A stretch of DNA of 64,000 bases from Acidimicrobiales bacterium (GTDB lineage: Bacteria; Actinomycetota; Acidimicrobiia; Acidimicrobiales; Aldehydirespiratoraceae): contig OY763490.2 in assembly GCA_963667505.2 (NCBI GenBank), positions 3,245,773 to 3,309,772 on the forward strand. The letters are read 5' to 3'. The position numbers and the translations under genes are program-made. The notes beneath the pieces are model-generated. The model was not told the DNA's origin. It saw only the letters and a list, made by a program, of their open reading frames with translations, and made no database searches. This document shows, in pieces, positions 23,648-49,611 of this stretch (the first letter of the stretch is position 1; the number at the start of each line of letters is the position of its first letter).

Positions 23648-23688
23648 AATGGCTGGAACTGCCGACGCGACGACGAGGGAGCAGTGAC

Positions 23689-24144: not shown

Positions 24145-24186
24145 GACCGAGAGGCTGAGCGCGAGCAGACAAGGAGGGCAGCTCCA

Positions 24187-25602: not shown

Positions 25603-27912
25603 GTGTACTCTTCGCTGGCCCGGCGGTGCTTCCGGCGTCCCTGGCGCGGACTCGTCGTCTGGCTCCTGGTCCTGTTCGCGGTGCTGGGTATCTCCGGGAA
25701 TCTCGGAGAGGCCTACAGCGCCGATTTGGCCATAGCCGGCACCGAGAGCCACGACGGCAACGACCTTCTCAAGCAGCACTTCGCCGGCGTTGGCGCCGGA
25801 CCGGCCGGCACCATCGTGTTCCGGGCCGAGCAAGGCGTGGACGATCCCGAGGTGCGGTCGGCGATGGGCGAGTTGTTCGCTCGGGTGAGGGCACTCGAGG
25901 ACACCTCCATCATCACGCCGTACGATCCGCTGGTCGGGCCGCTGCGAATCGCGCAGGACGGCGACCATGCAGGCCGCGTCGCATACGCCGATGTGAGTCT
26001 CCCGGCCGGGACGAGCGCCACCGAGGCCCAGGACATGGGAAGGACCATCGAGGGCCTGATCTCCGAGCTCGAGTTGCGATCCATCGAGGGCCTCGAGGTG
26101 GAAGTGGGCGGGGTCTGGTTCGCCGAACTGAGGCCGCCCGAGTCCGAGGCCATCGGGCTGGCCTTCGCGGTGTTCGTCCTCATCGCAATGCTGGGTTCGG
26201 TTATGGCCATGGGCGCCACTGTGGTGGCGGCTCTGGTCACCGTCGGCATCGGCGCGGCCACCATCATCGTCCTCAGCAACTTCATGACCGTGCCCGACTT
26301 CGCGCCGGCCATAGGCCTCATGATCGGGCTGGGCGTCGGCATCGACTACGCACTGTTCATCATCACCCGCTACCGGGACGCGCTGAGCGAGGGCCACGAG
26401 CGGGAGCAGGCCCTAGTGCTGGCGCTCGACTCCGCAGGCAGGTCCGTCATATTCGCGGGCGCGACTGTCGTCGTGTCGCTGCTGGGCATGCTGTTCATCG
26501 GGATCCCGTTCGTGACCGGCTTCGGCGTCGCCGCGGCCGCGACCGTGACAGTGGTGGTGGTCGGCTCGGTCACGCTGCTGCCGTCGCTGGTCGCCCTGCT
26601 CGGCGACCGGCTCACCACCACCCGGGTTCGGGGCGTGGTGGCCGCGGCGCTGTTCAGCGCAGCCCTGTTCGGCGCCGGCGCCGGGATCGAGCCGTTGGCC
26701 ATCGGCGCCGTGCCGGCTGCTCTGGTCGTGCTGGCGGCCGGGATGTTCGGAGGGGACGGGAACCCTCTGCGACGAAGGCTGCGGTCCCGTCGGACCCGTC
26801 CGCTCCGCGAGACGGGGTGGTACCGGCTCAGCCGCGCCGTGCAGGCTCGGCCGTGGAGCTTCGCCATAGGCGGCACCGCGCTGCTGCTGTTGTTGGCTGC
26901 TCCGGTGTTCGTGCTGCGGTTCGGATTCGCGGACGAGAGCAACTACGCCGCGGAGACCACCACCCGCAAGGCCTACGACCTGCTCGTCGACGGCTTCGGA
27001 GCGGGTGCCAACGGTCCTCTGCTGGTGGTGACCGAGGTGTCGGGCGTCGCCCAGATGGCCGAGTTGGCCAGCCTGGCAGGGGCCATCGAGGCCACCGACG
27101 GGGTCAGCTTCGTCAGCCCTCCCATCCCCAACAGCCCGCTGGCGCCGACCGCGGCCGCCCTCGAGGTCCGGCCGGCCACCGGGCCCCAGGCTGACGAGAC
27201 CGAGGCCCTCGTCAAGCACCTTCGCAGCAATGTGATCCCCGCGGCCGCCGCCGGGACGAGCCTCGATCCTGTGATCACCGGGCTGGTCGCGGTCAAGGCC
27301 GACGTCAGCGACTTCTTGAAGTCGCGCACCTTGGTGTTCTTCGTGGCGGTGCTGGGCGCCTCCTTCCTGCTGCTGATGGCCGTGTTCCGCTCGCTGGTCG
27401 TGCCGCTGAAGGCCGTCATCATGAACATGCTCTCGATCGGCGCGGCCTACGGCGTGCTGGTGGCCGTGTTCCAGTGGGGCTGGCTGGGCGGCCTCGTGGG
27501 GGTCGAGCCGGGGCCGATAGAGCCGTTCATGCCTATGATGCTGTTCGCGGTCCTGTTCGGCCTGTCCATGGACTACGAGGTGTTCCTCCTGTCGAGGATG
27601 AAGGAGGAGTTCGAACGCACCGGCGACGCGGTGAACTCCGTTGCCGACGGCTTGGCCCTGACAGCCCGAGTGATCACCGCGGCCGCCTTGATCATGGTGT
27701 TCGTGTTCGGGAGCTTCGTGTTCGAGGACCAGCGGGCAATCAAGATGTTCGGCGTCGGTTTGGCGGCCGCGGTTGCAGCCGACGCCAGCCTTGTACGGAT
27801 GCTCATCGTGCCCTCGACGATGGAGCTGCTCGGCGCTCGCAACTGGTGGCTCCCAGGCTGGCTCGACCGCATTCTTCCGAACGTCAGAGTTGAAGGCAGC
27901 AACATGGCCTGA
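25603..27912 (+). CDS. MMPL family (RND superfamily) transporter
   Basis: 769 aa with two 6-TM bundles. Motif GIDYALFIITRYRDAL recurs as SMDYEVFLLSRMKEEF. Confidence 0.85.
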   Translation: MYSSLARRCFRRPWRGLVVWLLVLFAVLGISGNLGEAYSADLAIAGTESHDGNDLLKQHFAGVGAGPAGTIVFRAEQGVDDPEVRSAMGELFARVRALEDTSIITPYDPLVGPLRIAQDGDHAGRVAYADVSLPAGTSATEAQDMGRTIEGLISELELRSIEGLEVEVGGVWFAELRPPESEAIGLAFAVFVLIAMLGSVMAMGATVVAALVTVGIGAATIIVLSNFMTVPDFAPAIGLMIGLGVGIDYALFIITRYRDALSEGHEREQALVLALDSAGRSVIFAGATVVVSLLGMLFIGIPFVTGFGVAAAATVTVVVVGSVTLLPSLVALLGDRLTTTRVRGVVAAALFSAALFGAGAGIEPLAIGAVPAALVVLAAGMFGGDGNPLRRRLRSRRTRPLRETGWYRLSRAVQARPWSFAIGGTALLLLLAAPVFVLRFGFADESNYAAETTTRKAYDLLVDGFGAGANGPLLVVTEVSGVAQMAELASLAGAIEATDGVSFVSPPIPNSPLAPTAAALEVRPATGPQADETEALVKHLRSNVIPAAAAGTSLDPVITGLVAVKADVSDFLKSRTLVFFVAVLGASFLLLMAVFRSLVVPLKAVIMNMLSIGAAYGVLVAVFQWGWLGGLVGVEPGPIEPFMPMMLFAVLFGLSMDYEVFLLSRMKEEFERTGDAVNSVADGLALTARVITAAALIMVFVFGSFVFEDQRAIKMFGVGLAAAVAADASLVRMLIVPSTMELLGARNWWLPGWLDRILPNVRVEGSNMA

Positions 27913-27974
27913 TCTACAGGGCCGCATTGGGTCGTAAAGCCCGTCGGCGAGGATAGGCCCACACCGATAGGCTG

Positions 27975-29189
27975 GTGAAGATGCACGTCGGCGAGCATGA
28001 AGCTGACGGCTCGCCCGTGGTGCCGTCCGACTATCGCGACTCGTTCAAGCGCGCGTATGCGGCGGACTCCGACCGGGCGACGAACTACATCGTGCACACG
28101 ATGGTGGCCGACCCGGTCTGTGACGAGATGATGGACCAGCTCGCCGCGGCTCCGATGGACGACTCGGACCGGTTCTTGCGGGCGGCCGTCGAGGATCCCG
28201 ACGATCCGGCGCTGAAGGACGCTCCGCCCGCGGTGCACGCCTTCGTCGAGGAGTTGGAGACGGTGCCCGACTGGGTCGACTTCGCAGACTTCACCGGCGG
28301 CGTCCGGGCCTTCCACCGGGACTCGGGGACGTGCCTGGCCGCGATGCTGGGCGGTGTGCTCGTCGAGGGCTTCTCCACCACCATCGCCAAGTCCTTCTTC
28401 ATCACCGGGCGGCTGCGCGATCAGGGGGTCAGGCGCCTGCACCAGAACAACCGTCACATGATCGAGATATTCCTGCCGTCCGGCTTGGAGACGAAGAACG
28501 ACGGCTGGAAGCTCTCGGTGCGGATCCGGTTGGTGCATGCCAAGGTCAGGCAACTCTTCAACAGTTCCCACGATTGGGACACCGACGCGCAGGGGGTGCC
28601 GGTCAGTGCGGCCCAGACCGCTTACGCACTGACGGCCTTCTCGGCGAGGATGCTGCTGCACATGAAGGGGCTGGGTGCCAGATACAGCGACGAGGAGCGC
28701 GACAGCTTCATGGCTGTCTGGCGGTATTCGGGGCATTTGATGGGAATCCCCTCCACTATCCTGCTACGCGACTACGCCGACGCGCTGGAGCTGTTCAGGA
28801 TCGGCAGCTTGTGCGAGCCCGACCCGGACATCGAGTCGATCGTCATGGCAAACTCACTGGTGCACTCGGCGCCCCTCGTGGCCGGAATCACCGATCCGGC
28901 CGATCGCCGCAAGATGGCGAAGTACATTTTCACGGTGTCGCGCGCCATGATCGGCGAAGCGCTGGCCGACCGGCTGCAGTATCCGTCCGGTCGCACGCTC
29001 GGCGTGCTGCCCTGGTTCCGCGTCCAGCGGCGATACCACCGCTTCATGAAGGATCGGATCCCGATGCTGACCCGGGAGTCGAACTTCACCGCGTTCAGCA
29101 CTCTGCTCGAAGTGTCGGCCCTGAAGGAGTTGGACATCGGTTACAGACTCCCCGACCACGTCTACGCGGAGGAGTCGCGTAGCTGGTGA
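27975..29189 (+). CDS. MpaB/DUF2236-family oxygenase-like protein
   Basis: 404 aa. Central RIRLVHAKVRQ motif and overall helical composition are typical of the family. Start is 27975 (GTG) or 27981 (ATG). Confidence 0.5.
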   Translation: MKMHVGEHEADGSPVVPSDYRDSFKRAYAADSDRATNYIVHTMVADPVCDEMMDQLAAAPMDDSDRFLRAAVEDPDDPALKDAPPAVHAFVEELETVPDWVDFADFTGGVRAFHRDSGTCLAAMLGGVLVEGFSTTIAKSFFITGRLRDQGVRRLHQNNRHMIEIFLPSGLETKNDGWKLSVRIRLVHAKVRQLFNSSHDWDTDAQGVPVSAAQTAYALTAFSARMLLHMKGLGARYSDEERDSFMAVWRYSGHLMGIPSTILLRDYADALELFRIGSLCEPDPDIESIVMANSLVHSAPLVAGITDPADRRKMAKYIFTVSRAMIGEALADRLQYPSGRTLGVLPWFRVQRRYHRFMKDRIPMLTRESNFTAFSTLLEVSALKELDIGYRLPDHVYAEESRSW

Positions 29190-29212
29190 GTCCGGCGGCA
29201 GGGGGCTTTCCG

Positions 29213-29235
29213 CCAGCAGGTCGGAAGCCTGCTGG
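29213..29235 (+). terminator. candidate stem-loop terminator after the MpaB-like gene
   Basis: CCAGCAGG-tcggaag-CCTGCTGG (8-bp stem) begins 24 nt after the stop. No U-tract. Confidence 0.3.
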
Positions 29236-29408
29236 GCCGCGCTGCCGCCGCTGGCCGGGGCGCCGCCGACCGTGGGTAGATCGCTTGCATCCGCCCGCAC
29301 GAGGTAAGCCGCAGCCCGGTCGCGCGCATGGCACCGTGGCGCCGTGTAGCATCGCGACGGGTCACAGCCGACTGCGATCGATCAGCGATTGCGAGGAGAG
29401 CGATTTCA

Positions 29409-29750
29409 TTGGACATCAGCACTGAGCGGCATGGTGCCGTCTTGATCGCAAGGGCCGAAGGCCGCGTCGACGGATCCAACGCGCAGCAGTTCCATCAGGC
29501 GGTGGAGTCGGCGCTGGGCGCTGATGATCTGGCGATGGCGCTTGACTTCAGTCGACTCTCATACATCAGCAGCGCAGGTCTTCGCGTGGTGCTGTTGACT
29601 GCCAAAACGTTACAACAGCGGCGAGGGCGTCTAGTTGTATGCTCACTTCCCAATGGCATAAGGGAACTCTTTCAGATCAGCGGTTTCGACAAGATCATCA
29701 CCATATGCGAGTCTTGTGACGAGGCAGTTGCTGAACTCAACGGCAGTTGA
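29409..29750 (+). CDS. STAS-domain anti-sigma-factor antagonist (RsbV/SpoIIAA-like)
   Basis: DFSRLSYISSAGLRVVL contains the conserved phospho-Ser context. TTG start at 29409 is assumed; the tracked ORF begins at 29328. Confidence 0.75.
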   Translation: MDISTERHGAVLIARAEGRVDGSNAQQFHQAVESALGADDLAMALDFSRLSYISSAGLRVVLLTAKTLQQRRGRLVVCSLPNGIRELFQISGFDKIITICESCDEAVAELNGS

Positions 29751-29850
29751 ATACACGAGGCAGCCTGACGATGTTCAGATCTACTATGCTATTAGCCAGT
29801 TCGCGTGATTCTATACAAATCGGACCATCAACGAAAGCAATTCAAATCCA

Positions 29851-31014
29851 ATGATAGAGCCTCCATACAAAATTCTGGTTGTCGATGATGAACCGGACCT
29901 CGAGCCTTTGGTGTTGCAACGTATGCGGCGGCATATTCGATCAGGCCAATACATATTCACCTTTGCCCAGAACGGGATTGAAGCCCTAGAGTGCCTGAGA
30001 GAGGACGAAGAGATACTAATTGTCTTGTCCGATATAAATATGCCGAAAATGGATGGTCTCACACTCCTTGAGAACATTCCTAGCGTAAATCCCAATGTGC
30101 GTTCTGTGATCATTTCAGCCTACGGAGACATGAAGAACATTCGCACTGCGATGAACCGTGGTGCTTTCGACTTTGTGACAAAGCCGGTGGACTTCGATGA
30201 TCTCAAGTTGACAATTGAACGTACATTGCAGCATTTGCTGGAATGGACCGAGGCACTGGCCGCTCGCGACAGGCTTGTAACGATCCAGAACGAACTGAGC
30301 GTGGCCAGTACCATGCAACAGTCGATACTGCCTAGGAGTTTCCCTACGTCAGACCTCTACGACGTGTACGCCAGCATGAAGCCCGCACGATCAGTGGGCG
30401 GCGACTTCTTCGACATAGTCATGCTCGACGCTGGCCGTGTCGGCATCGCCATCGCCGACGTTTCGGACAAGGGCGTGCCGGCTGCACTGTTCATGATGTC
30501 CAGCCGCACGCTGTTGAAGGGATCAGCCATCGGGATGGAGGCGCCCGGGGAAGTCCTGCGCGAGGTCAACGACCTTCTATGCGAGAATAATGACACTGCA
30601 ATGTTCGTCACGCTCTTCTATGCGGTCTATGATCCCCTCAGTGGGCGACTCACGTACGCTAACGGCGGACACAACACGCCAGTTATCGTGGACACTACTG
30701 GCGGATCGAGACAGCTACCGATGACCGGAGGTGTGGCACTAGGATTGATGTCGGGCCTCGAGTATGATCACGACTCTGTCGTGCTGAGACCCGGTGAGAC
30801 AGTTGTTCTGTACACAGACGGTGTAACCGAGGCAATGAATCTCGAAAAAGAAGAGTTCGGAATGGAGCGTCTTGAGCAGATGTTTGAAGGGTCGCCTCCA
30901 AATAATGCCAAAACAGCCAACGATCTGATTTTTGACGCTGTGAATGAGTTCGCGGGCGACGCTCCACAATCCGATGACATCACATGCATGACACTACGTC
31001 GCAACGAGGAGTGA
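29851..31014 (+). CDS. response-regulator receiver fused to PP2C/SpoIIE phosphatase (RsbU/RsbY-like)
   Basis: REC motifs: ILVVDDEPD, VLSDINMPKMDG, FVTKP. PP2C motifs: GGDFFDI, ADVSDKG, YTDGVTEA, SDDITCM. Confidence 0.85.
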   Translation: MIEPPYKILVVDDEPDLEPLVLQRMRRHIRSGQYIFTFAQNGIEALECLREDEEILIVLSDINMPKMDGLTLLENIPSVNPNVRSVIISAYGDMKNIRTAMNRGAFDFVTKPVDFDDLKLTIERTLQHLLEWTEALAARDRLVTIQNELSVASTMQQSILPRSFPTSDLYDVYASMKPARSVGGDFFDIVMLDAGRVGIAIADVSDKGVPAALFMMSSRTLLKGSAIGMEAPGEVLREVNDLLCENNDTAMFVTLFYAVYDPLSGRLTYANGGHNTPVIVDTTGGSRQLPMTGGVALGLMSGLEYDHDSVVLRPGETVVLYTDGVTEAMNLEKEEFGMERLEQMFEGSPPNNAKTANDLIFDAVNEFAGDAPQSDDITCMTLRRNEE

Positions 31015-31016
31015 AG

Positions 31017-31436
31017 ATGGCCGAGAAGCTGGTCCTTGAAGTAGACAACCATCGCAGTGAACTCGATCGCATTACCGCGGCTGTCGAAGAGTTGGGAGAG
31101 CGTGAGCAATGGCCACCGGCGCTCGTGTTCAAGGTCCATCTTGCGCTCGAGGAATTGGTGGTGAACGTGATGACCCATGGTCGGCATGAGAAGATGCACG
31201 AGATACGGGTGACGCTCACCTCAGACGACGAGGCGGTGTCAGTGGAGATTATGGACGACGGCCTGCCGTTCGACCCGTTGAATGACGCCCCCGAGCCGGA
31301 CCTCACGGGCCAGATCGAAGATCGTCGAGTGGGCGGTCTCGGCGTGTTCCTCGTGCTGGACATGGCGGATGAAGTCAACTACGCCCGAGAGCACGGGAAG
31401 AACTGCTTCTTCATGAAAGTGCTCCGGGACGCATGA
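31017..31436 (+). CDS. HATPase_c-type anti-sigma regulatory Ser kinase (RsbW/SpoIIAB-like)
   Basis: N-box-like LALEELVVNVMTHG and G-box DDGLPFDP...GGLGVFLV. The ATG at 31017 lies 3 nt after the upstream stop. Confidence 0.75.
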   Translation: MAEKLVLEVDNHRSELDRITAAVEELGEREQWPPALVFKVHLALEELVVNVMTHGRHEKMHEIRVTLTSDDEAVSVEIMDDGLPFDPLNDAPEPDLTGQIEDRRVGGLGVFLVLDMADEVNYAREHGKNCFFMKVLRDA

Positions 31437-31467
31437 GGGACGGCCCCGGAGTGAGAGGATCGCTTCG

Positions 31468-32727
31468 GTGAGCCGGGCCGGGCTCTGCGTCTCGGTGGCA
31501 GTTCTGATCGTGGTCGGGTGCGGTTCGTCGGGACCCGGCGACGACAGCTCGGTCATCTCCACTACTGTGCCGGAGAGCTTCGACGGCGAGGTGGGCACGG
31601 CCCAGCCTGCCGCGGACGCTGGCCCGACCCCCGGCGTGTCGGACCAGGCGGTCGTCTTCGGTCAGTCCGCCGCGTTCAGCGGCCCGGCCGCGGAGTTGGG
31701 CACCAGCATGCGGCTCGGGGTCGAGGCCGCCTTCGCCGAGGCGAACCGCGGCGGCGGCGTCCACGGTCGGCGGTTGGAGCTCGTCTCCCTCGACGATGCC
31801 TACGAGCCCGAGGCGGCCATCGCCAACACCCGCACGCTGATCGAGCAGGAGCAGGTGTTCGCGCTGATCGGCGCCGTGGGCACTCCGACTTCCCGTTCGG
31901 CGACGCCGGTGGCCGCCGAGAGCGGTGTGCCCTACGTTGCTCCATTCACCGGCGCGGCCTTCCTGCGCGACCCGCAGTGGGAGAATGTGATCAACCTCAG
32001 AGCCTCCTATTACCAGGAGACCGAGGAGATGGTGGAGCGCCTGACCTCCGACTTGGGCGTCGAGCGGATCGCGGTCATGTACCAGGACGACTCGTTCGGC
32101 CGGGCTGGGTACCGGGGCGCCCTCCAGGCTCTGGAGCGCCGGACTATGGAGCCCGTGTCTCTGGGGGTGTACACGCGCAACACGACTGCCGTGAAGTCGG
32201 GGTTGCTGGACGTGCGCCAGGGCGATCCCGACGCAGTCATCATCGTCGGAGCCTACAAGCCGGTGGCGTCGGTGATCACCTGGGCCCGGGTACTCGGGAT
32301 GGACGCCGTGTTCATCACCCTCTCCTTCGTGGGAAGCAACGCCCTCGCTGAGGAGCTTGGCAGCTACGCTCCCGGCGTCTTCGCCACGCAGGTGATGCCG
32401 TTTCCGACCGACGCCACGGTGCCGGCTGTGGCCGCCTACCTCGAGGCGCTGTCCGCGCACGATCCGGAGGCCGATCCGGGGTTCGTGTCCATCGAGGGCT
32501 ACCTGGCCGGGCGGCTCGCCATCGCCAGTCTCGAGCTGTGCGGCCCAGAGCTCGACCGGGCCTGCTTCCTGGCGAGCTTCAATGACTTGAGGGCCGAGCA
32601 CCTCGAGAGCTTCGAGCTGGACTTCGGACCCGACGACAACCAGGGTTCCGACGCGGTGTTCCTGACGGTGATCGACGAGAACGGCCAATACCGGCCCATC
32701 GAGACGATGTTGGAGGCGACTCGATGA
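31468..32727 (+). CDS. type-1 periplasmic binding protein (Leu/Ile/Val-binding family) lipoprotein
   Basis: Lipobox VLIVVGCGSS. Motifs GQSAAFSGPAAELG...LIGAVGTPT. No cognate ABC permease or ATPase nearby. Its stop overlaps the kinase start (ATGA). Confidence 0.75.
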   Translation: MSRAGLCVSVAVLIVVGCGSSGPGDDSSVISTTVPESFDGEVGTAQPAADAGPTPGVSDQAVVFGQSAAFSGPAAELGTSMRLGVEAAFAEANRGGGVHGRRLELVSLDDAYEPEAAIANTRTLIEQEQVFALIGAVGTPTSRSATPVAAESGVPYVAPFTGAAFLRDPQWENVINLRASYYQETEEMVERLTSDLGVERIAVMYQDDSFGRAGYRGALQALERRTMEPVSLGVYTRNTTAVKSGLLDVRQGDPDAVIIVGAYKPVASVITWARVLGMDAVFITLSFVGSNALAEELGSYAPGVFATQVMPFPTDATVPAVAAYLEALSAHDPEADPGFVSIEGYLAGRLAIASLELCGPELDRACFLASFNDLRAEHLESFELDFGPDDNQGSDAVFLTVIDENGQYRPIETMLEATR

Positions 32728-34973
32728 CGGATCTGCGCGGCGAGATGAAGGAACGGCTGGCGCAGCTCGCCCGGATGCGCTATCGCATATCGACAAGGCT
32801 CTACGTGGGCATCGGAACCTCGGTAGTGCTCACGATCCTGGCCGCTCTCGTCGGCCTCTTCTCGTTCAGCCAGGTCGCCGACGGCCAGAACAGGGTCAAC
32901 GAAGGCAGCGTGCCGTCGCTGGCGGCCGCGTTCAGGGTGGCGCAACTCAGCGGCGAGCTGGTCGCCACCGCGCCGGGCCTGGGCGCCTCGTCTCGTAGTG
33001 ACTTCGCATCGCTCTCCGCGAGTGCCGACACAACTTACTCCCATTTCGCGGAGAGCCTGGCCGCGCTCGAAGAGGCCGGCATCAGCGAAGCCCAGCGGGA
33101 TGAATTGCAGAGACTCAGCGCGAGGCTTCTCGCCAATGTCGAGGAGATCAAGGCCGACAAGCTCAAGATCTTCGAACTGGCCGAGAGCAGGGAGAGCCTC
33201 AAGTCCGAGTTGGACGAAGTGAGCGCAAGGCTCGACGTCACGCTGATTCCGACGATTGACGACCAGTTCTTCTACACCATGACGGGGTATCGTGCGCTTG
33301 CCGGCATTCGGGCGACCCGTTCGGTTCACCTGGCCGAGCGCGAGGTGGCGCACTACCGCTACCTGGCCGAGCTGCAGGCCGATGCTGACACTGCGGCGCA
33401 GCTGCTGGCCAGTGCGTTCGCGGTTTCGGACGCCTCCAGCGTCGAGCCGCTGATCGAGCGTTTCGAGTCGGCGCAAGGCCGTGTGGAGCGAAGCCTGTCG
33501 GGTTTGCAGGACTCGTCGGCTCGCACCCGGCTGCAGCCCATCTTCGATCAACTCCTCAGCCTGGGAGGTGAACAGGGCGGATTCGTTCTGAGGGTTGAAG
33601 AACTCAGGCTGATAGAGCACCAGGGGCAGCTGCTCCAGGACAACCGGGCGATCGCCGCCGACCTGCTTCACGGGGTCAACGATCTGGTCGGCTCGGCTGA
33701 GGCTGAGGTTCGGGCGGCCACCGACGCCTCGGAGGAGGCGATGGCCACGGGTCGGGCCCTGCTGCTGGCTATCGCGGCGATCGGCGTCGGCGGAGCGGTG
33801 CTGATCGTATTGCGGGTGGGCCGGGTGCTGGTGAGCCGACTGGCTCGCATCTCGGCCTGGATGCGTCGCATGGCGTCGGGCGACTTGGAGGCCACCGAGG
33901 AGATCGAGGGCCGCGACGAGGTGACCGAGATGGCCGCGGCGCTGGAGGTGTTCCGACAGCACGCTCTCGAGGTCCAGCGCCTGAACCTGGTGGAGATGCT
34001 GGCCGAGGAGCTCAAGGAGAAGAACGATCAGCTCGAGGAGGTGCTGGAGGACCTGCAGAAGGCCCAGGATCAGATCGTCATGCGGGAGAAGCTGGCCGCC
34101 CTCGGCGAGCTGACCGCGGGCGTGGCCCACGAGATAAAGAACCCGTTGAACTTCGTCAAGAACTTCTCCGAGGTGTCCGGGGAGCTGATCGAAGAGTTGA
34201 GGGAGGCGATCGACGACATCGGCGACGGGATCGAAGAAGACCAGAAGTCGTACATAGAGGAGATCTCCGATGATCTAACCGGCAATCTGGAGCGGATCCG
34301 CTCACACGGCGACCGGGCCAACCGCATTGTGCACGACATGCTGCAGATGGGCCGCGACACCGGCGAGTGGCAGATGGCGAAGATCAACGACCTCCTGGAG
34401 GAACACTCCCGTCTCGCCTATCACGCGGCTAGGGCCAATGACTCGGACTTCCAGCTCGACCTCAAGTTCGATCTCGATCCCGAGATCGGCCGCATCGAGG
34501 TGATACCGCGCGACCTGAGCCGCGTGTTCTTGAACATGATCGGCAACGCGGGCGACGCCACCGACGAGAAGCGGCGCAAGCTGCTGGCAGGCGACATCCA
34601 ACCGGCCCCCTCGGAGGAGTCCGAGCCCTACATGCCCACACTGTGGATTTCCAGTCGCCGTGATGCGGAGAAGATCGAGATCCGCATCAAGGACAACGGC
34701 ATGGGGATCCCTCCCGACGTGGCCGACAAGATCTTCAATCCGTTCTTCACCACCAAGCCCACCGACCGGGGAACCGGCCTGGGCCTGGCCATCTCGAGCG
34801 ACATCGTGCGCCAGCACGGCGGCAGCATCCGTGTGGAGTCCGAGCCGGGCCTGTCCACCGAGATGATCATCGAGCTGCCGCTGGAGCCGCCGCAAGCGGC
34901 ACGAGAGGCCGAACTCGCCCAGGCCGAACAGGCCGACGACGAGCCGTCTGCCGAGGAGCCGGTCGGAGTCTGA
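32724..34973 (+). CDS. sensor histidine kinase (TM - about 300-aa extracytoplasmic domain - TM - HAMP - coiled coil - HisKA - HATPase)
   Basis: H-box AGVAHEIKNPLNFV, N-box FLNMIGNAGDA, G-boxes IKDNGMGIP and GTGLGLAIS. HAMP after the second TM. No receiver domain. Confidence 0.85.
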   Translation: MTDLRGEMKERLAQLARMRYRISTRLYVGIGTSVVLTILAALVGLFSFSQVADGQNRVNEGSVPSLAAAFRVAQLSGELVATAPGLGASSRSDFASLSASADTTYSHFAESLAALEEAGISEAQRDELQRLSARLLANVEEIKADKLKIFELAESRESLKSELDEVSARLDVTLIPTIDDQFFYTMTGYRALAGIRATRSVHLAEREVAHYRYLAELQADADTAAQLLASAFAVSDASSVEPLIERFESAQGRVERSLSGLQDSSARTRLQPIFDQLLSLGGEQGGFVLRVEELRLIEHQGQLLQDNRAIAADLLHGVNDLVGSAEAEVRAATDASEEAMATGRALLLAIAAIGVGGAVLIVLRVGRVLVSRLARISAWMRRMASGDLEATEEIEGRDEVTEMAAALEVFRQHALEVQRLNLVEMLAEELKEKNDQLEEVLEDLQKAQDQIVMREKLAALGELTAGVAHEIKNPLNFVKNFSEVSGELIEELREAIDDIGDGIEEDQKSYIEEISDDLTGNLERIRSHGDRANRIVHDMLQMGRDTGEWQMAKINDLLEEHSRLAYHAARANDSDFQLDLKFDLDPEIGRIEVIPRDLSRVFLNMIGNAGDATDEKRRKLLAGDIQPAPSEESEPYMPTLWISSRRDAEKIEIRIKDNGMGIPPDVADKIFNPFFTTKPTDRGTGLGLAISSDIVRQHGGSIRVESEPGLSTEMIIELPLEPPQAAREAELAQAEQADDEPSAEEPVGV

Positions 34974-34977: not shown

Positions 34978-36210
34978 TCAAGCGCGGGCGCTGGGCCCGT
35001 ACGAGAGATGCATCAGCTCGCCGCTCGCGAAACGCGACGGCCGAAGGGCCCGGGCGTCGATGGCCGGCGCGTCGCCTACCTGATCGACGCCCAGAACGGC
35101 CGCGGCCGCGATCTCGCCCAACGCGGGCGACAGCTTGAGCCCGTGGCCGGAGAGGCCCACCGCCAGGTACAGGCCGGCCACGGGGCCGATCTCTTCGGCC
35201 CATCCCAGGATCGGGTGATAGTCCGGCGAGATGTCGTAGGCGCCGCTGGTCCTCCACACCACTGAGCCCGCCTCAAGGGTCGGGAGCCGCTCGGCCATGG
35301 CCCGAGTGATGCGGGCAGCGTGCGCCGTGTGATCGGCATGCGAGGCGTCGGCGAGCGGGTCATCGACCGGCGGCATCTCCGGGGGATAGGCCACTGCCAG
35401 CACGCGCCGGCCCATGTCGGGGCGGATCACCAGATTGGAGTTGCCGTCGGTGATGCAGGTGTGCAGTCCTCTCGCTCCCGGCGGCTGCGCCAGCATGGCC
35501 ATGTCGAGGCGCCGTCGTTCGACGGGCACGTCCACGCCCAGTGGATCGAGCAGATCCCGGGCCCATGCGCCCGTAGCCGCCACCACGACCGGCGCCCGGA
35601 TCGGGCCCCTCGAGGTGGCCACTCCGGCGACAGCGCCGTCGGACACCAGAATCTCCTCCACTGCCAATGGCGTCAGTACGGCCGCGCCCGCGCCCGCGGC
35701 CGCGGCCAACCAGCTCAGCACCATCTTGGTGACGTCGATATAGCCGCCGTCGGGCTCGTACGCTCCGCCCGCGATTCCGGCCGCATTCACCAGCGGCTCG
35801 ATGTCGACGATCTCGCTGCCGCGCACGAAGCGGGTGTCCACTCCGAGGCTCCGGCCCAGCTCGATGTTGTGGCGGAGCCCGCCGAGCTGGGCTTCTGTGA
35901 CCAGCAGCATGTAGCCGAACCTCGCGTAACCGGGATCACCGAACCCCACCGCCGCGTCCCAGTTGCGTATGCAGTGGAACCCTCTCTGGGCGATGCGCAC
36001 CATCAACTCGTTGGAGTAGTGCTGACGGATCTGGCCGAACGTGCGCCCCGAGATCCCCCCCACCGGCGGTCGGGCGTCGACCACCGCGATGCGCCGACCG
36101 GAGTGCCGAGCCAGTTGGTAGCCGATGCTCGCACCGGTCACGCCGGCGCCGATCACGACCACGTCGACCTCCGGCGGCACCGGCTGGCTGGGCCGGGGGC
36201 GGCCGCTCAC
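34978..36210 (-). CDS. FAD-dependent oxidoreductase (DAO family; glycine/sarcosine/D-amino-acid-oxidase-like)
   Basis: VDVVVIGAGVTGASIGYQLA. The GTG at 36210 overlaps the malate synthase stop (GTGA). The upstream 109 aa of the tracked ORF are Arg/Pro-rich and non-coding-like. Confidence 0.7.
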   Translation of the reverse strand: MSGRPRPSQPVPPEVDVVVIGAGVTGASIGYQLARHSGRRIAVVDARPPVGGISGRTFGQIRQHYSNELMVRIAQRGFHCIRNWDAAVGFGDPGYARFGYMLLVTEAQLGGLRHNIELGRSLGVDTRFVRGSEIVDIEPLVNAAGIAGGAYEPDGGYIDVTKMVLSWLAAAAGAGAAVLTPLAVEEILVSDGAVAGVATSRGPIRAPVVVAATGAWARDLLDPLGVDVPVERRRLDMAMLAQPPGARGLHTCITDGNSNLVIRPDMGRRVLAVAYPPEMPPVDDPLADASHADHTAHAARITRAMAERLPTLEAGSVVWRTSGAYDISPDYHPILGWAEEIGPVAGLYLAVGLSGHGLKLSPALGEIAAAAVLGVDQVGDAPAIDARALRPSRFASGELMHLSYGPSARA

Positions 36211-38396
36211 AGTGTCGTACCGGCCTTGACGGCCCGGCGATGAGCCCGGAGTATGCGCTCGGTGTAGCCGTTGGGCTCGGTGCGGGCCGAGCGGACCAAC
36301 TCCGCCGCGGCCTGGAAGGGGATGCTGGCGTCGTAGTCGGGCGCCATCGGCCGGTAGAGGGAATCTCCGCTGTTCTGCTGGTCGACGAGATTGGCCATGC
36401 GCCGCAGGGTCTTGTGCACCTGATCCTCGGTGACCAGCCCGTGGTGGAGCCAGTTGGCGATGTGCTGGCTGGAGATGCGCAGCGTGGCCAGGTCCTCCAT
36501 CAGGCCGATGCCGTTGACGTCGAGCACGGTGGAGCACCCCACGCCGTGGCCCACCCAGCGCACGACGTATCCGAGGATGCCTTGAACGTTGTTGTCGAGT
36601 TCCCGCTGGACTTCCGCGGGGCCCAGTTCCCGGCCGGGGGGCAGCGCCGGGATGTCGATCAGGTCGGCTGGAGAGGCCGGCGGCCGGCCGTCCAGACGGC
36701 GCTGGCGGTCGGCCACATCAACGGCGAAGTAGTGCAGGGCATGGAGGGTGGCCGCAGTGGGCGAAGGCACCCAGGCCGTGCTCGCCCCAGCGAGAGGATG
36801 CTGGATCTTGGCCTTCACCATGGCGGCCATCTCTGTCGGCATGGTCCACATGCCCTTGCCGATCTGGGCCCGGCCCCTGAGTCCGCAAGCCAGGCCGGTG
36901 TCGACGTTGGAGTTCTCGTAGGCGCCGAGCCATGTCGCCGCCTTCATCTCGGCTTTGGGGATCATCGGACCGGCTTCCATGTCGGTGTGGATCTCGTCGC
37001 CGGTGCGGTCAAGGAAGCCGGTGTTGATGAACACCACCCGGTCGCGGGCTGCTGCGATCGCCGCGGTCAGACCCAGCGACGTGCGCCGCTCCTCGTCCAT
37101 GATTCCCATCTTCAGGGTGGAACGGGACAGTCCGAGGGCGTCCTCGACCCTCCCGAACAGGTCGCAGGCCAGCGCCACCTCGTCGGGACCGTGCATCTTG
37201 GGCTTGACGATGTACACGGAGCCGGCCGCCGAGTTGCGGACCGGCCGGCCCTCGATGCGGCCATGCCCTCGCAGGTCTTGCAGGGCGCACAGCGCGCTGA
37301 CCATGGCGTCGAGCATCGTCTCGTGGATCGGCTCGTCATGGATCGTCACCATGTCGGTGGTGAGGTGCGGGCCGACATTGCGGACCAGCATCAGGCTGCG
37401 GCCCGGAAGCGTCAGAGGGCTGCCGTCGGTGCCGTTGAAGGAGCGGTCGCCGTTCAGGGCGCGATGCACCCGGGTGCCGTCGTCTCGCACGAAGCTCGCG
37501 TCCAGGTCGCCCTTCATCAGGCCGAGCCAGTTGCGGTAGACGACGACCTTGTCCTCGGTGTCCACCGCTGAGACCGAGTCTTCGTAGTCCATGATGGTGG
37601 TGACGGCCGACTCGAGGCGGATGTCGTGGACGCCCGCGTGGTCGCGCCCGCCCACTGGATGGCCGCGGTCGATGCAGACTTCGCAGTGCAGGCCGTTCTT
37701 GTGCAGCAGGATGGAGGCCGGTGCCTCCGCAGCGCCGGTGTATCCGACCAGCCGCTCGGGCTGCAGCATGGTGGAGGTGGTGCCGTCACCGTTGCGGGCC
37801 TGCAATTCTCCCTCGACGATCCTGTACTCGGTGATCCAGGCGTGCGAGGCCGAATCGAGAGCGAAGTGGCGGTCGAGGAAGGCGCGCCCCTCCGCCACCA
37901 CCCGGTCGCCTCTGATCGGGTTGTAGCCCCCACCTCTGCCGCAGCCGTCCGCCTCCGACAGCACGTCGGTTCCGTAGAGGGCGTCGTAGAGGCTGCCCCA
38001 GCGGGCGTTGGCCGCGTTGAGCGCATAGCGGGCGTTGTCGAGCGGCACCACGAGCTGAGGCCCGGCCACCGTGGCGATCTCCGGGTCCACGTTGGAGGTG
38101 GCCGCGGCGAACGGGCCGTCGTCGGGCCGCAGGTATCCGATGCTGCGAAGGAAATCGGCGTAGGCCTCTGGGTCGTGGTCTCGACCCTCGGCCCGGCCGG
38201 CCCGGTGCCAGTCGTCGATCTGGGCTTGGAGGTCGTCGCGCCGGGCCAGCAGCGCGGCGTTGCGCGGACCGAGTTCCGCGACGATCGACTCGAAGGCCTC
38301 CCAGAACTCGCTGGCCTCTATGCCCGTGCCGAACAGAGCCTCGTCGGCCACGAAGTCGTAGAGCGGTTGGTCAATCTCAAGTCTGCCGATGTGCAT
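36207..38396 (-). CDS. glcB: malate synthase G
   Basis: 729 aa from MHIGRLEIDQPLYDFV. Family-typical stretches are present (GSVYIVKPKMHGPDEV, MGIMDEERRTS, DRVVFINTGFLDRTGDEIHT). Confidence 0.9.
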   Translation of the reverse strand: MHIGRLEIDQPLYDFVADEALFGTGIEASEFWEAFESIVAELGPRNAALLARRDDLQAQIDDWHRAGRAEGRDHDPEAYADFLRSIGYLRPDDGPFAAATSNVDPEIATVAGPQLVVPLDNARYALNAANARWGSLYDALYGTDVLSEADGCGRGGGYNPIRGDRVVAEGRAFLDRHFALDSASHAWITEYRIVEGELQARNGDGTTSTMLQPERLVGYTGAAEAPASILLHKNGLHCEVCIDRGHPVGGRDHAGVHDIRLESAVTTIMDYEDSVSAVDTEDKVVVYRNWLGLMKGDLDASFVRDDGTRVHRALNGDRSFNGTDGSPLTLPGRSLMLVRNVGPHLTTDMVTIHDEPIHETMLDAMVSALCALQDLRGHGRIEGRPVRNSAAGSVYIVKPKMHGPDEVALACDLFGRVEDALGLSRSTLKMGIMDEERRTSLGLTAAIAAARDRVVFINTGFLDRTGDEIHTDMEAGPMIPKAEMKAATWLGAYENSNVDTGLACGLRGRAQIGKGMWTMPTEMAAMVKAKIQHPLAGASTAWVPSPTAATLHALHYFAVDVADRQRRLDGRPPASPADLIDIPALPPGRELGPAEVQRELDNNVQGILGYVVRWVGHGVGCSTVLDVNGIGLMEDLATLRISSQHIANWLHHGLVTEDQVHKTLRRMANLVDQQNSGDSLYRPMAPDYDASIPFQAAAELVRSARTEPNGYTERILRAHRRAVKAGTTL

Positions 38397-38443
38397 CGGG
38401 TCAGCTAACCATGTCCGGTCCGTTCCCAACCAGCCCGGCCGTC

Positions 38444-38511
38444 GGGACGGGGAGACTGCTGGCACGGGGAGGCCGCTGGGACGGGGAGGCCGCTGGGACG
38501 GGGATCCGATG
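38444..38511. repeat. 4 x 17-bp G-rich tandem repeat in the glcB/antiporter divergent intergenic region
   Basis: Units are GGGACGGGGAGACTGCT, GGCACGGGGAGGCCGCT, GGGACGGGGAGGCCGCT and GGGACGGGGATCCGATG. There are four GGGG tracts plus interspersed GGG. Confidence 0.9.
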
Positions 38512-38615
38512 GGGGGCCGTCCGATCAAACCGGACGCAGGAGGCTGGCTGCTGGCAGCCGGGATCGGTCGTCGCTAGTCTCGACGATCGCCGTCGACGAC
38601 CGGTGGAGGACGGCC

Positions 38616-49594: not shown

Positions 49595-49611
49595 CTTTGC
49601 TCCTCCTCGGA

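What the first reader, a model, noticed from the sequence alone, without database searches (positions are those of the whole stretch)
29400..34973. Low-GC partner-switching island (STAS / REC-PP2C / RsbW-like kinase) placed upstream of a solute-binding-protein + HAMP histidine kinase pair, with no sigma factor
Five co-directional genes with tiny gaps (3 nt, 31 nt, and an ATGA overlap) look like one signalling unit.
- Input: a lipoprotein of the Leu/Ile/Val-binding family that has no ABC partner, translationally coupled to a receiver-less HAMP histidine kinase with a large extracytoplasmic domain.
- Transmission: a receiver domain fused to a PP2C phosphatase, which is the obvious phospho-acceptor.
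- Output: an RsbV-like STAS protein and an RsbW-like Ser kinase.

No sigma factor or other evident output gene is present in the window.

The three partner-switching genes are visibly AT-richer than the genome. The first 60 nt of the phosphatase gene are 28/60 G+C, against roughly two-thirds G+C in the flanks. The binding protein and kinase have host-like composition. This suggests a horizontally acquired switch module was plugged into a resident sensor pair.

REC-PP2C partner-switching systems are known (the RsbY/RsbK and HsbR/HsbA type). This split architecture with a binding-protein co-sensor, a compositional seam and no visible target is worth characterising.
Basis: partly seen in the sequence, partly recalled or inferred. 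Interest (0 to 1): 0.7.

Follow-up and report, generated by a model that had tools for sequence, protein, structure and literature searches.

The report
Mobile five-gene sensor and partner-switch cassette
The five genes are real and form one signalling cassette that bacteria of at least six phyla carry as a unit, so the AT-rich stretch is a patch overwritten inside that cassette, not a foreign switch added to a resident sensor.

Summary
Observation confirmed. Five co-directional genes encode a STAS protein, a REC-PP2C phosphatase, an RsbW-like Ser kinase, a Leu/Ile/Val-family binding lipoprotein and a two-TM HAMP histidine kinase. The window has no sigma factor. A unique low-GC tract is present (GC3 0.60 vs 0.86; tetranucleotide z = -8.5).

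- All five genes travel together, in the same order, in about 70 of 80 related loci from six phyla.
- Their divergences are correlated (r 0.71-0.85), and REC-PP2C is the most conserved protein.
- In syntenic close relatives the chromosomal slot holds the whole cassette, the cassette inverted, or nothing. It never holds the PBP-HK pair alone.
- The compositional seams lie inside the STAS and RsbW genes (about 29522 and 31118).
- A sister genome with 92-96% identical flanking proteins is low-GC throughout and carries the cassette in the same slot.

The tract is therefore best read as like-for-like recombination within an existing cassette.

The kinase has a TorS-type periplasmic sensor, which supports the binding protein as co-sensor. 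The closest characterised analogue is Mycobacterium smegmatis RsfS/RsfR-RsfB-RsbW2, which also has no linked sigma factor. Ligand and output are unknown. Recurrent neighbours (ammonium transporter, methylated-amine catabolism) hint at nitrogen sensing. I classify it as a new variant of a known kind.

The parts
29409..29750 (+). STAS single-domain protein (anti-sigma-factor-antagonist type), 113 aa, TTG start
   Evidence: Pfam STAS 66 bits; TIGR00377 75.7 bits, above its cut-off. The closest solved structure is SpoIIAA. Both Ser of the 'SYISSAGL' motif are conserved in at least 95% of 67 homologues. The first 38 or so codons have host-like GC3 and the rest is low.
29751..29850 (+). 100-nt AT-rich spacer (43% GC) between STAS and REC-PP2C
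   Evidence: Sequence. No Rfam match. No consensus promoter or terminator.
29851..31014 (+). Response-regulator receiver fused to a PP2C (SpoIIE-family) Ser phosphatase, 387 aa
   Evidence: Response_reg 80 bits plus SpoIIE 178 bits. The best solved relative is 3eq2/3f7a, deposited as 'probable two-component response regulator' (P. aeruginosa PA2798/RssB from my own knowledge). The DD, D and K residues of the receiver and the GGDFFD, DVSDKG, TDG and SDD motifs are invariant in 76 homologues. It is the most conserved cassette protein.
31017..31436 (+). RsbW/SpoIIAB-like GHKL Ser kinase, 139 aa
   Evidence: HATPase_c_2 90 bits. Weak match to SpoIIAB structures. N-box E/N, DxG and GGLG are conserved in 77 homologues. 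It is fused to the phosphatase in one ORF in L037, and the Pfam domain content of P0030 indicates the same.
31468..32727 (+). Extracytoplasmic Leu/Ile/Val-family (Peripla_BP_6) binding lipoprotein, 419 aa; proposed co-sensor
   Evidence: Peripla_BP_6 195 bits. Closest structure 4kv7, E 3e-70. VVGC lipobox. No ABC partner in the window or among the conserved neighbours.
32724..34973 (+). Two-TM sensor histidine kinase: TorS-type periplasmic domain, HAMP, HisKA, HATPase_c; no receiver domain
   Evidence: Pfam. TIGR02956 TorS aligns to residues 22-442. A profile of 26 homologues hits the TorS sensor-domain structures 3o1h/3o1i/3o1j and 3i9y at E 2e-6 across the whole domain. TM segments at residues 24-53 and 339-373.
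29522..31118 (.). Low-GC3 tract (GC3 0.60 against 0.86 outside), with both seams inside genes
   Evidence: Two-change-point maximum-likelihood fit, log-likelihood ratio 76. Tetranucleotide z = -8.5 and rare codons 25-29%. Present in an independent assembly.
30330..30560 (.). Host-like GC3 island (about 0.8) inside the low-GC tract, making the tract a mosaic
   Evidence: Sliding 25-codon GC3.
24187..25518 (+). Upstream border of the chromosomal slot: FAD oxidoreductase (N-methylglutamate dehydrogenase subunit A-like)
   Evidence: Pfam DAO. Homologues are 81-95% identical in syntenic relatives. JGI names some homologues 'methylglutamate dehydrogenase subunit A'.
25603..29189 (+). MMPL transporter plus MpaB/Lcp-family oxygenase, lying between the slot border and the cassette in this genome only
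   Evidence: Pfam. Absent at this position in L082, L084 and L085. L083 has a P450 gene and an MMPL remnant instead.
34978..38528 (-). Downstream border of the slot: FAD oxidoreductase (DAO) and malate synthase G, convergent on the cassette
   Evidence: Pfam. Same genes in L029, L082, L083, L085 and L087.

Best explanation
**What it is.** A self-contained accessory sensory cassette that moves between genomes as a five-gene unit. It joins a two-component front end to a partner-switching back end.

**Proposed pathway. Every step is inferred from homology and conserved residues. None has been shown biochemically.**
1. The surface-anchored Leu/Ile/Val-family binding protein captures a small ligand. 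It docks on the TorS-type periplasmic domain of the histidine kinase, as TorT does on TorS.
2. The kinase sets the phosphorylation state of the receiver Asp of REC-PP2C. This raises or lowers the phosphatase activity; the sign is unknown.
3. REC-PP2C dephosphorylates the conserved Ser of the STAS protein. The small RsbW-like kinase re-phosphorylates it.
4. The unphosphorylated STAS protein is the output. It acts on a partner encoded elsewhere in the genome. The partner could be an anti-sigma factor, as RsfB acts on RsbW1, or a non-sigma target.

**The low-GC tract (29522-31118).** It is not a separate inserted module. It is a stretch of the cassette overwritten by like-for-like recombination with a lower-GC allele. 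The likely source is one of the low-GC sister lineages that carry the same cassette in the same chromosomal slot.
For: **One unit**
- Same order and strand in about 70 of 80 loci from Chloroflexota, Actinomycetota, Latescibacterota, Gemmatimonadota, Acidobacteriota and Pseudomonadota.
- Pairwise-identity matrices of the five proteins correlate at r 0.71-0.85.
- The phosphatase and kinase are fused in one ORF in L037 and, by domain content, in P0030.

**Accessory and exchanged**
- Cross-phylum identities reach 74-88%, while within-phylum minima are 54-57%.
- In the window's own clade, where flanking enzymes are 87-97% identical, the slot is filled in the window, L082, L083, L084 and L085. It is inverted in L029 and empty in L086 and L087.

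**Functional competence**
- All catalytic and phospho-acceptor residues are conserved.

**Co-sensor**
- TorS-type sensor domain.
- The binding protein has no ABC partner.

**Precedent for each later step**
- RsfS phosphorylates RsfR (REC-PP2C) on Asp74. This modulates dephosphorylation of RsfB (STAS).
- RsbW2 only phosphorylates RsfB and does not bind sigma.
- No sigma factor lies at that locus (PMC10950880).

**Recombination patch**
- The seams are inside genes and the GC3 profile is mosaic.
- The anomaly is absent from cassettes in other high-GC genomes: the mean PP2C minus HK GC3 difference is 0.001.
- It is present to varying degrees in the syntenic relatives L083, L082, L084 and L029.
- Third-position identity to the nearest relative drops to 0.42-0.52 in the tract, against 0.71-0.73 in PBP and HK, although PP2C is the most conserved protein.
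- L085 has flank proteins 92-96% identical to the window but GC3 0.52-0.64 throughout, and it carries the cassette in the same slot.
Against: - No donor was found. The nearest PP2C (89%, L082) is itself GC-rich.
- No switch of nearest neighbour is seen along PP2C.
- Synonymous sites are saturated between all available relatives, so recombination cannot be shown directly.
- An attenuated GC3 dip in several clade members could equally reflect an old event, or a local selective or mutational effect.
- No phosphotransfer, ligand or target has been demonstrated.
- STAS is missing from the locus in L084, L085 and the six gammaproteobacterial loci. The back end is therefore not always encoded in cis.
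- Four Dehalococcoidia loci have PBP-HK alone.
- Taxon labels come from MAG record titles and some could be wrong.
Confidence: 0.6

Rival explanations
1. A foreign three-gene partner-switching module (STAS, REC-PP2C, RsbW) was inserted upstream of a resident, vertically inherited PBP-HK sensor pair.
For: The three genes are AT-richer and the PBP and HK are host-like in GC3. Four distant Dehalococcoidia loci show that PBP-HK can exist alone.
Against: - All five genes co-occur and co-diverge in six phyla.
- Close syntenic relatives have either the whole cassette or none.
- The seams are inside STAS and RsbW, and a host-like island lies in PP2C.
- The first 38 or so codons of STAS and the last three quarters of RsbW are host-like in GC3.
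- No flanking repeats.
Confidence: 0.05
2. The low GC3 arose in place, without any transfer. The cause would be local selection for rare, AT-ending codons that throttle expression of the switch proteins, or a local mutational bias.
For: - Several syntenic relatives (L082, L083, L084, L029) also show lower GC3 in the upstream genes.
- No donor was found, and the protein nearest neighbour is the same along the whole of PP2C.
- Rare codons are strongly enriched.
Against: - Cassettes in other high-GC genomes show no dip (L004, L027, L034, L038, L062).
- The size and extent of the dip differ between close relatives, and the boundaries are sharp and mosaic.
- The tract's GC3 (0.60) matches the genome-wide GC3 of a sister lineage (L085).
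Confidence: 0.2
3. Classical output. The RsbW-like protein is a true anti-sigma factor that sequesters an alternative sigma factor encoded elsewhere. STAS merely releases that sigma factor.
For: It matches the HATPase_c_2, RsbW and SpoIIAB families, and its size (139 aa) is typical. Sigma factors unlinked to their switch genes are known (PMC10950880).
Against: - The cassette functions as a portable unit in six phyla without carrying a sigma factor. One locus of 80 has one, and it is housekeeping RpoD.
- RsbW is the least conserved cassette protein (mean 50%).
- The M. smegmatis counterpart RsbW2 does not bind sigma.
- Non-sigma outputs are documented (HenR/All4160).
Confidence: 0.3
4. The two halves are only neighbours. 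The kinase signals to a response regulator encoded elsewhere, and REC-PP2C is fed by another kinase.
For: Four loci have PBP-HK without the switch genes. Phosphotransfer is untested.
Against: - No other receiver protein is conserved near the cassette.
- Gaps are tiny and one junction overlaps.
- HK and PP2C divergences correlate at r = 0.81.
- They move together between phyla.
Confidence: 0.1

Closest known systems
Mycobacterium smegmatis RsfS/RsfR two-component system with RsfB (STAS) and RsbW2 (PMC10950880)
   Same: A membrane histidine kinase with a periplasmic sensor, a REC-PP2C response regulator, a STAS protein and a small RsbW-like Ser kinase are clustered at one locus with no sigma factor. 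The kinase phosphorylates the receiver Asp and so tunes dephosphorylation of STAS~P. The host phylum is the same (Actinomycetota).
   Different: RsfS senses through a CHASE3 domain and has no binding-protein partner. The genes lie in two divergent operons, together with an extra DNA-binding regulator. Sequence similarity is low (RsfB structure 8ih8, E 3e-4). That system is not known to move between phyla.
Bacillus cereus RsbK/RsbY-RsbV-RsbW-SigB
   Same: A sensor kinase controls a REC-PP2C phosphatase, which drives an RsbV/RsbW partner switch (established knowledge; PMC4574943 listed).
   Different: RsbK is a cytoplasmic-sensing hybrid kinase with its own receiver and a methyltransferase partner, RsbM. 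The switch genes sit in the sigB operon. Here the kinase is not hybrid, has a periplasmic TorS-type domain, and no sigma factor is linked.
Pseudomonas HsbR/HsbA (HptB pathway) and Shewanella CrsR/CrsA
   Same: REC, PP2C and RsbW-like kinase activities act on one STAS protein, and outputs go beyond a dedicated sigma factor (PMC6482189 listed). The fused form REC-PP2C-HATPase_c_2 occurs in the cassette relative L037 and probably in P0030.
   Different: In the window the phosphatase and kinase are separate genes, 2 nt apart. There is no Hpt intermediary. The input is a dedicated PBP and kinase pair encoded in the same cassette.
TorT/TorS (TMAO sensing); more loosely LuxP/LuxQ and ChvE/VirA
   Same: The periplasmic sensor domain is homologous to that of TorS, and a periplasmic binding-protein gene overlaps the kinase gene. 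This suggests ligand sensing through a binding-protein and kinase complex.
   Different: TorS is a hybrid kinase with receiver and HPt domains that signals to the OmpR-type regulator TorR. From my own knowledge, TorT belongs to a different binding-protein family from Peripla_BP_6; I did not check this here. The ligand is unknown here.
Anabaena HenR/All4160 partner-switching-like module (bioRxiv 10.64898/2026.04.08.717354)
   Same: The abstract describes a phosphatase (HenR), a STAS-domain protein and Ser kinases whose output is not a sigma factor.
   Different: The genes are dispersed. There, STAS is a domain of a protein tied to polysaccharide synthesis, not a stand-alone protein. No binding-protein and kinase front end has been described.

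Membership tests
Partner-switching system (SpoIIAA/SpoIIAB/SpoIIE, RsbV/RsbW/RsbU type) | Single-domain STAS protein with a phosphorylatable Ser in the DSSG-like loop | tested here: met
   Pfam STAS 66 bits; TIGR00377 above its cut-off. The Ser-Ser of 'ISSAGL' is conserved in at least 95% of 67 homologues. The best PDB match is SpoIIAA.
Partner-switching system (SpoIIAA/SpoIIAB/SpoIIE, RsbV/RsbW/RsbU type) | GHKL Ser kinase of the HATPase_c_2 family with N, G1 and G2 boxes | tested here: met
   HATPase_c_2 90 bits. E/N, DxG and GGLG are conserved in 77 homologues.
Partner-switching system (SpoIIAA/SpoIIAB/SpoIIE, RsbV/RsbW/RsbU type) | PP2C (SpoIIE-family) phosphatase with metal-binding Asp residues | tested here: met
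   SpoIIE 178 bits. The GGDFFD, DVSDKG, TDG and SDD motifs are invariant.
Partner-switching system (SpoIIAA/SpoIIAB/SpoIIE, RsbV/RsbW/RsbU type) | A target (classically a sigma factor) bound by the kinase/anti-sigma protein, usually encoded alongside | tested here: not met
   No Sigma70 domain in any scanned ORF of the window. Only one of 80 related loci has a sigma factor nearby, and it is RpoD. A target elsewhere in the genome cannot be excluded.
Partner-switching system (SpoIIAA/SpoIIAB/SpoIIE, RsbV/RsbW/RsbU type) | Reversible Ser phosphorylation of STAS, and exchange of binding partners | not testable with these tools
   Needs biochemistry (Phos-tag, pull-downs).
TCS-controlled partner switch (RsfS/RsfR type; RsbK/RsbY type) | Response regulator made of a receiver plus PP2C, with an intact phospho-acceptor Asp, next to a histidine kinase | tested here: met
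   Response_reg plus SpoIIE in one protein. DD, D and K are invariant. The kinase lies 1.7 kb downstream in the same gene string and is co-inherited.
TCS-controlled partner switch (RsfS/RsfR type; RsbK/RsbY type) | Phosphotransfer from the kinase to the REC-PP2C that changes phosphatase activity | not testable with these tools
   Inferred from co-inheritance only.
TCS-controlled partner switch (RsfS/RsfR type; RsbK/RsbY type) | Sensor type of the characterised members (CHASE3 in RsfS; hybrid kinase with receiver in RsbK) | tested here: not met
   No CHASE3 and no receiver in the kinase. The sensor is TorS-type.
TorS/TorT TMAO sensor | TorS-type helical periplasmic sensor domain | tested here: met
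   TIGR02956 aligns to residues 22-442. The profile hits 3o1h and 3i9y at E 2e-6 over the full domain. The whole-protein score of 150 bits is far below the TorS cut-off of 676.5.
TorS/TorT TMAO sensor | Hybrid kinase with C-terminal receiver and HPt domains, signalling to the OmpR-type regulator TorR | tested here: not met
   No receiver or HPt domain. No OmpR-type regulator in the cassette.
TorS/TorT TMAO sensor | TorT-family binding protein that binds TMAO | tested here: inconclusive
   The partner is Peripla_BP_6, with LIV-type nearest structures. That TorT belongs to another binding-protein family rests on my own knowledge. The ligand is unknown. TMA/TMAO catabolic genes lie 20 kb away, which is only circumstantial.
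High-affinity branched-chain amino-acid ABC uptake (LivJ/K type) | Binding protein encoded with LivHMGF-type permease and ATPase genes | tested here: not met
   No such genes next to it in the window or among the conserved neighbours of 80 loci. NF011933 scores 60.7 bits against a cut-off of 477.

The most novel reading that the evidence does not exclude
The cassette is a habitat-specific sensory island, exchanged between phyla among marine sponge and coral symbionts. It senses a host-derived nitrogen compound (a methylated amine, ammonium-related compound or amide). Its STAS output directly gates a cassette-linked ammonium or methylammonium transporter, taking the place of the PII protein GlnK. 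It may also control the co-transferred circularly permuted ATP-grasp / Alpha-E / transglutaminase system.

**Leads**
- An Amt gene lies within 10 kb in 28 of 80 loci.
- A co-directional Amt-then-STAS gene pair occurs in 12 loci of three phyla.
- No glnK lies beside these Amt genes.
- The ATP-grasp cluster co-diverges with the cassette (r 0.83-0.93).
- In the window's clade the cassette sits inside an N-methylglutamate-pathway locus.
Probability: 0.1. Interest if true: 0.8.

Novelty: new variant of a known kind. Interest (0 to 1): 0.5.

Why it matters
Partner-switching modules driven by a two-component system are known from a few model organisms. This one is a compact, portable five-gene version whose front end is a binding protein plus a TorS-type kinase.

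**Why the distribution is interesting**
- It has been passed between at least six phyla at 50-88% protein identity.
- Most carriers are uncultured lineages whose names and record titles point to sponge and coral microbiomes.
- A sensory pathway that works after transfer into both monoderm and diderm hosts, without bringing a sigma factor, must act on something widely conserved or on genes that travel with it.
- That makes the long-standing question of what sigma-less partner switches control directly testable.

**Why the neighbours are interesting**
- The recurrent neighbours are an ammonium transporter, methylated-amine catabolism and an uncharacterised ATP-grasp system.
- They give a concrete physiological hypothesis for symbionts that live on host nitrogen waste.

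**Method point**
- A local GC dip is not proof of an inserted gene module.
- Here it marks a recombination-like patch with breakpoints inside genes.

Tried and rejected
- **Insertion signatures around the low-GC tract.** No flanking direct or inverted repeats above chance. The only transposase seen is in one distant locus, L024.
- **Regulatory RNA or operon punctuation.** No Rfam match at E <= 0.1 in 27-37 kb. No promoter-like or terminator-like sites above the shuffled expectation. The consensus used is a poor fit for a high-GC actinobacterium, so this says little.
- **Donor hunt.** The protein search gave a best non-self PP2C of 89%, from a GC-rich locus. Segment-wise identity shows no change of nearest neighbour. 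Third-position identity between the window and the other low-GC3 allele (L083) is at saturation (0.50). No donor was identified.
- **Single-sequence PDB search with the kinase sensor domain.** It found nothing. Only the profile search recovered TorS.
- **Sigma factor or GlnK near the cassette.** tblastn probes found essentially none. The one sigma factor is RpoD in L076.
- **A cassette-type Amt, ATP-grasp, Alpha-E or transglutaminase gene in the window.** Absent. The window's Amt (59508-60947) is only 26-27% identical to the cassette-linked ones.
- **Literature.** I found no paper in the held library linking sponge symbionts with SpoIIE, or Amt with stand-alone STAS proteins. MAG accession numbers are not indexed. 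MAG-name searches gave only indirect support for a sponge origin.
- **Failed look-up.** One look-up of encoding contigs (P0140) returned nothing.
- **Not used.** I did not use structure prediction. It could not address complexes or ligands with the tools available.

Full report
**1. The observation**

Five + strand ORFs occupy 29409-34973:

| Gene | Coordinates | Note |
|---|---|---|
| STAS | 29409-29750 | TTG start preceded by GAGGAG; 113 aa, matching the median length of homologues (about 112 aa) |
| REC-PP2C | 29851-31014 | |
| RsbW-like kinase | 31017-31436 | |
| Binding protein (PBP) | 31468-32727 | |
| Histidine kinase (HK) | 32724-34973 | |

- The gaps are 100 nt, 2 nt, 31 nt and a 4-nt ATGA overlap.
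- Pfam and NCBIfam confirm every domain call:
  - STAS (TIGR00377 above its cut-off);
  - Response_reg plus SpoIIE;
  - HATPase_c_2;
  - Peripla_BP_6;
  - HAMP, HisKA and HATPase_c, with no receiver.
- The binding protein has a lipobox (VVGC).
- The kinase has two TM helices around a periplasmic domain of about 285 residues.

**2. Composition**

- The tract is the only sub-60% GC region of the 64-kb window. Its 1-kb minimum is 0.514, against a mean of 0.676 and sd of 0.033.
- GC3 is 0.61-0.74 in the three upstream genes, against 0.85-0.89 in the PBP and HK.
- A two-change-point likelihood fit puts the seams at 29522 and 31118.
  - The first lies inside the STAS gene and the second inside the RsbW gene.
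  - GC3 is 0.60 inside and 0.86 outside, with a log-likelihood ratio of 76.
  - A host-like island (about 30330-30560) interrupts the tract.
- Tetranucleotide usage of 29601-31200 is the strongest outlier of the window (z = -8.5). Rare codons rise from 5-6% to 25-29%.
- An independently assembled scaffold (L001) is colinear at 99.28% identity over 16.4 kb across both seams, so this is not a chimera.

**3. The five genes are one inherited unit**

A scan of one genome per species with the kinase returned 80 loci at 50-63% identity.

- About 70 loci carry all five genes in the same order and strand. REC-PP2C is the most conserved protein, at 63-73%.
- Pairwise-identity matrices of the five proteins correlate at r 0.71-0.85 over 66 loci.
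- Catalytic and phospho-acceptor residues are conserved in 67-77 homologues:
  - the receiver DD, D and K;
  - the PP2C Asp motifs;
  - the kinase N, G1 and G2 boxes;
  - the STAS Ser.
- In L037 the phosphatase and kinase are one ORF, and the domain content of P0030 indicates the same. This is the HsbR/CrsR domain order.
- PBP-HK alone occurs in only four Dehalococcoidia loci.

**4. The unit is accessory and is exchanged between genomes**

- By their record titles, the loci come from Chloroflexota, Actinomycetota, Latescibacterota, Gemmatimonadota, Acidobacteriota, and Gamma- and Alphaproteobacteria.
- Cross-phylum identities over four concatenated proteins reach 74-88%. Within-phylum minima are 54-57%.

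Closer relatives share the window's chromosomal context. That context is:
- upstream, a glutamine-synthetase-like gene, then GATase_6, GXGXG, Glu_synthase, a 151-aa ORF and a DAO gene;
- then the slot;
- downstream, a convergent DAO gene and malate synthase G.

With upstream flanking enzymes 81-97% identical to the window, the slot holds:

| Locus | Content of the slot |
|---|---|
| Window, L082, L083 | Whole cassette |
| L084, L085 | Cassette without a detectable STAS gene |
| L029 | Cassette inverted, only 47-66% identical by tblastn |
| L086 | Unrelated genes |
| L087 | Nothing; the two DAO genes are 55 nt apart |

- PBP-HK alone is never seen in this slot.
- MMPL and MpaB (25603-29189) are an extra insertion specific to the window's lineage.

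**5. What the low-GC tract is**

- Across the 80 loci the mean GC3 difference between PP2C and HK is 0.001. High-GC genomes of other lineages show no dip. The dip is therefore not a property of the genes.
- It recurs, to different extents, in the syntenic relatives:

| Locus | GC3, upstream genes | GC3, PBP or HK |
|---|---|---|
| L083 | 0.63 (PP2C) | 0.86 |
| L082 | 0.82 (PP2C) | 0.94 |
| L084 | 0.79 (PP2C) | 0.86 |
| L029 | 0.63-0.79 | 0.86-0.89 |

- Against the nearest relative, third-position identity at identical residues is 0.42-0.52 in the tract and 0.71-0.73 in the PBP and HK. Yet PP2C is the more conserved protein.
- L085 has flank proteins 92-96% identical to the window, but is low-GC throughout (GC 0.56, GC3 0.52-0.64). 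It carries the cassette in the same slot. Lineages with the tract's composition and a homologous cassette therefore exist.
- I conclude that the tract is most likely a like-for-like recombination patch.
- The case is not closed. No donor was found, there is no nearest-neighbour switch along PP2C, and synonymous sites are saturated. In-place selection or mutational bias stays as a rival at about 0.2.

**6. The sensor**

- NCBIfam's TorS model aligns to residues 22-442.
- A profile of 26 homologues (A1) hits the TorS sensor-domain structures 3o1h/3o1i/3o1j and 3i9y at E 2e-6 over the whole domain.
- From established knowledge, TorS senses through the periplasmic binding protein TorT.
- Here a binding-protein gene overlaps the kinase gene and has no ABC partner. 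Its nearest structure is an uncharacterised LIV-type protein, 4kv7.
- This supports the co-sensor idea but says nothing about the ligand.

**7. The back end and its precedent**

- In M. smegmatis, the rsfB (STAS)-rsbW2 operon lies next to rsfR (REC-PP2C)-rsfS (CHASE3 kinase).
- RsfS phosphorylates RsfR on Asp74, which lowers dephosphorylation of RsfB~P.
- RsbW2 does not bind sigma and only phosphorylates RsfB.
- SigF and its anti-sigma factor are encoded elsewhere (PMC10950880).
- Non-sigma outputs are also documented.
- The absence of a sigma factor in the window and in 79 of 80 relatives is therefore not anomalous. It is still an open question for a cassette that moves between phyla.

**8. 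Context clues**

*In the window:*
- Trimethylamine monooxygenase (54613-55956) and TMAO demethylase (56086-58866) both score above NCBIfam's curated cut-offs.
- A GmaS/MgsABC-like set lies at 18891-23647.
- An MgdA-like DAO gene borders the slot.
- An Amt gene lies at 59508-60947.

*In other phyla:*
- A conserved Amt lies within 10 kb in 28 of 80 loci.
- In 12 loci it forms a co-directional Amt-then-STAS pair. Essentially no glnK lies in any of the loci: two weak PII-like hits, neither beside a cassette-linked Amt.
- A circularly permuted ATP-grasp / Alpha-E / transglutaminase cluster follows the kinase in about 24 loci.
- That cluster co-diverges with the cassette at r 0.83-0.93.
- A CBS-domain cation/proton antiporter recurs too.

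These clues suggest nitrogen- or amine-related sensing. They are circumstantial.

**9. Habitat**

- Family names (Aldehydirespiratoraceae, formerly UBA11606; Poriferisodalis) and MAG names point to sponge and coral holobionts.
- This rests on record titles and my own knowledge of those MAG series. I ran no habitat test.

**10. Verdict**

- The mechanistic reading as a PBP/kinase to REC-PP2C to STAS/RsbW pathway is well supported by comparative evidence, but is untested biochemically.
- The 'foreign module plugged into a resident sensor' reading is not supported.
- The system is a new variant of a known kind: a two-component-driven partner switch with a TorS-type, binding-protein-assisted sensor.
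- Its main points of interest are its portability across phyla and its recurrent nitrogen-related neighbours.

Noticed in passing
window 54613-58866 (-), 18891-25518 (+), 59508-60947 (-): The window encodes a methylated-amine catabolic set. Trimethylamine monooxygenase scores 738 bits (cut-off 675) and TMAO demethylase 1169 bits (cut-off 1100). There are also a glutamine-synthetase-like gene with GATase_6, GXGXG and Glu_synthase (GmaS/MgsABC-like), an MgdA-like oxidoreductase and an ammonium transporter. The TorS-type sensor cassette sits in the middle of this set.
   Followed up: partly
L003, L007, L019, L028, L035, L037 (upstream of STAS); L065, L067-L069, L077, L078 (minus strand after HK): A co-directional gene pair of an ammonium transporter followed by STAS, 33-200 nt apart, recurs in three phyla. 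No glnK (PII) gene lies beside the transporter. An Amt gene lies within 10 kb of the cassette in 28 of 80 loci.
   Followed up: partly
e.g. L004 13070-17894; L025 12414-17195; L038 12192-15475: A circularly permuted ATP-grasp / Alpha-E / transglutaminase cluster, often with an Amt gene embedded, follows the kinase in about 24 loci. It co-diverges with the cassette (r 0.83-0.93; ATP-grasp mean identity 77% across phyla). A larger island appears to be co-transferred. Its function is unknown.
   Followed up: partly
L085 (whole 21-kb locus) compared with window 18891-25518: A sister genome has flank enzymes 92-96% identical to the window, yet GC3 of about 0.6 against about 0.9 (locus GC 0.56 against 0.68). 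This is a very large genome-wide GC shift between close relatives.
   Followed up: no
L029 3058-19038: In a Candidatus Aldehydirespirator sp. chromosome the cassette lies between the same two flanking gene sets but is inverted. By tblastn it is only 47-66% identical to the window's, while the upstream-flank enzymes (GS-like to MgdA-like DAO) are 92-97% identical and the downstream DAO and malate synthase G 76-79%.
   Followed up: partly
window 25603-29189: MMPL transporter and MpaB/Lcp-family oxygenase genes lie between the MgdA-like gene and the cassette only in this lineage. L083 has a P450 gene and an MMPL remnant there, and L082, L084 and L085 have nothing. The upstream edge of the slot is a rearrangement hot spot.
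   Followed up: partly
window 38616-40286; L008, L025, L030-L032: A 556-aa Na_H_Exchanger-CBS antiporter lies 3.6 kb downstream of the kinase. Its roughly 60% identical homologues sit upstream of STAS, or between STAS and REC-PP2C, in loci labelled Chloroflexota, Latescibacterota and Gemmatimonadota.
   Followed up: partly
L037 7044-8672; protein P0030: In L037, REC-PP2C and the RsbW-like kinase are fused into one ORF of 542 aa, giving the HsbR/CrsR-type domain order. P0030 (534 aa) carries all the same Pfam domains, which suggests the same fusion.
   Followed up: partly
L084 17141-19771; L086 11432-12391: Defence or toxin genes (DarT, a Macro/RAMA protein, AbiEii) lie just beyond the slot in L084. 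A RAMA-domain gene occupies the empty slot in L086.
   Followed up: no
L024 4768-6267; L043 2070-4212: A DDE transposase is inserted between STAS and REC-PP2C in L024. L043 carries a second STAS-PP2C-RsbW copy 4 kb upstream of a cassette that lacks PP2C.
   Followed up: no
L001 4576-5238 (window 29190-29850): The public gene call for the ENA scaffold omits the STAS gene, which has a TTG start and low GC. Automated annotation of this genome probably under-reports the cassette.
   Followed up: no
window 10889-14759 (-), 48192-52494: Hydantoinase/oxoprolinase A and B subunits, an amidohydrolase and an amidase show that the window is rich in organic-nitrogen catabolism beyond the methylamine genes.
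   Followed up: no
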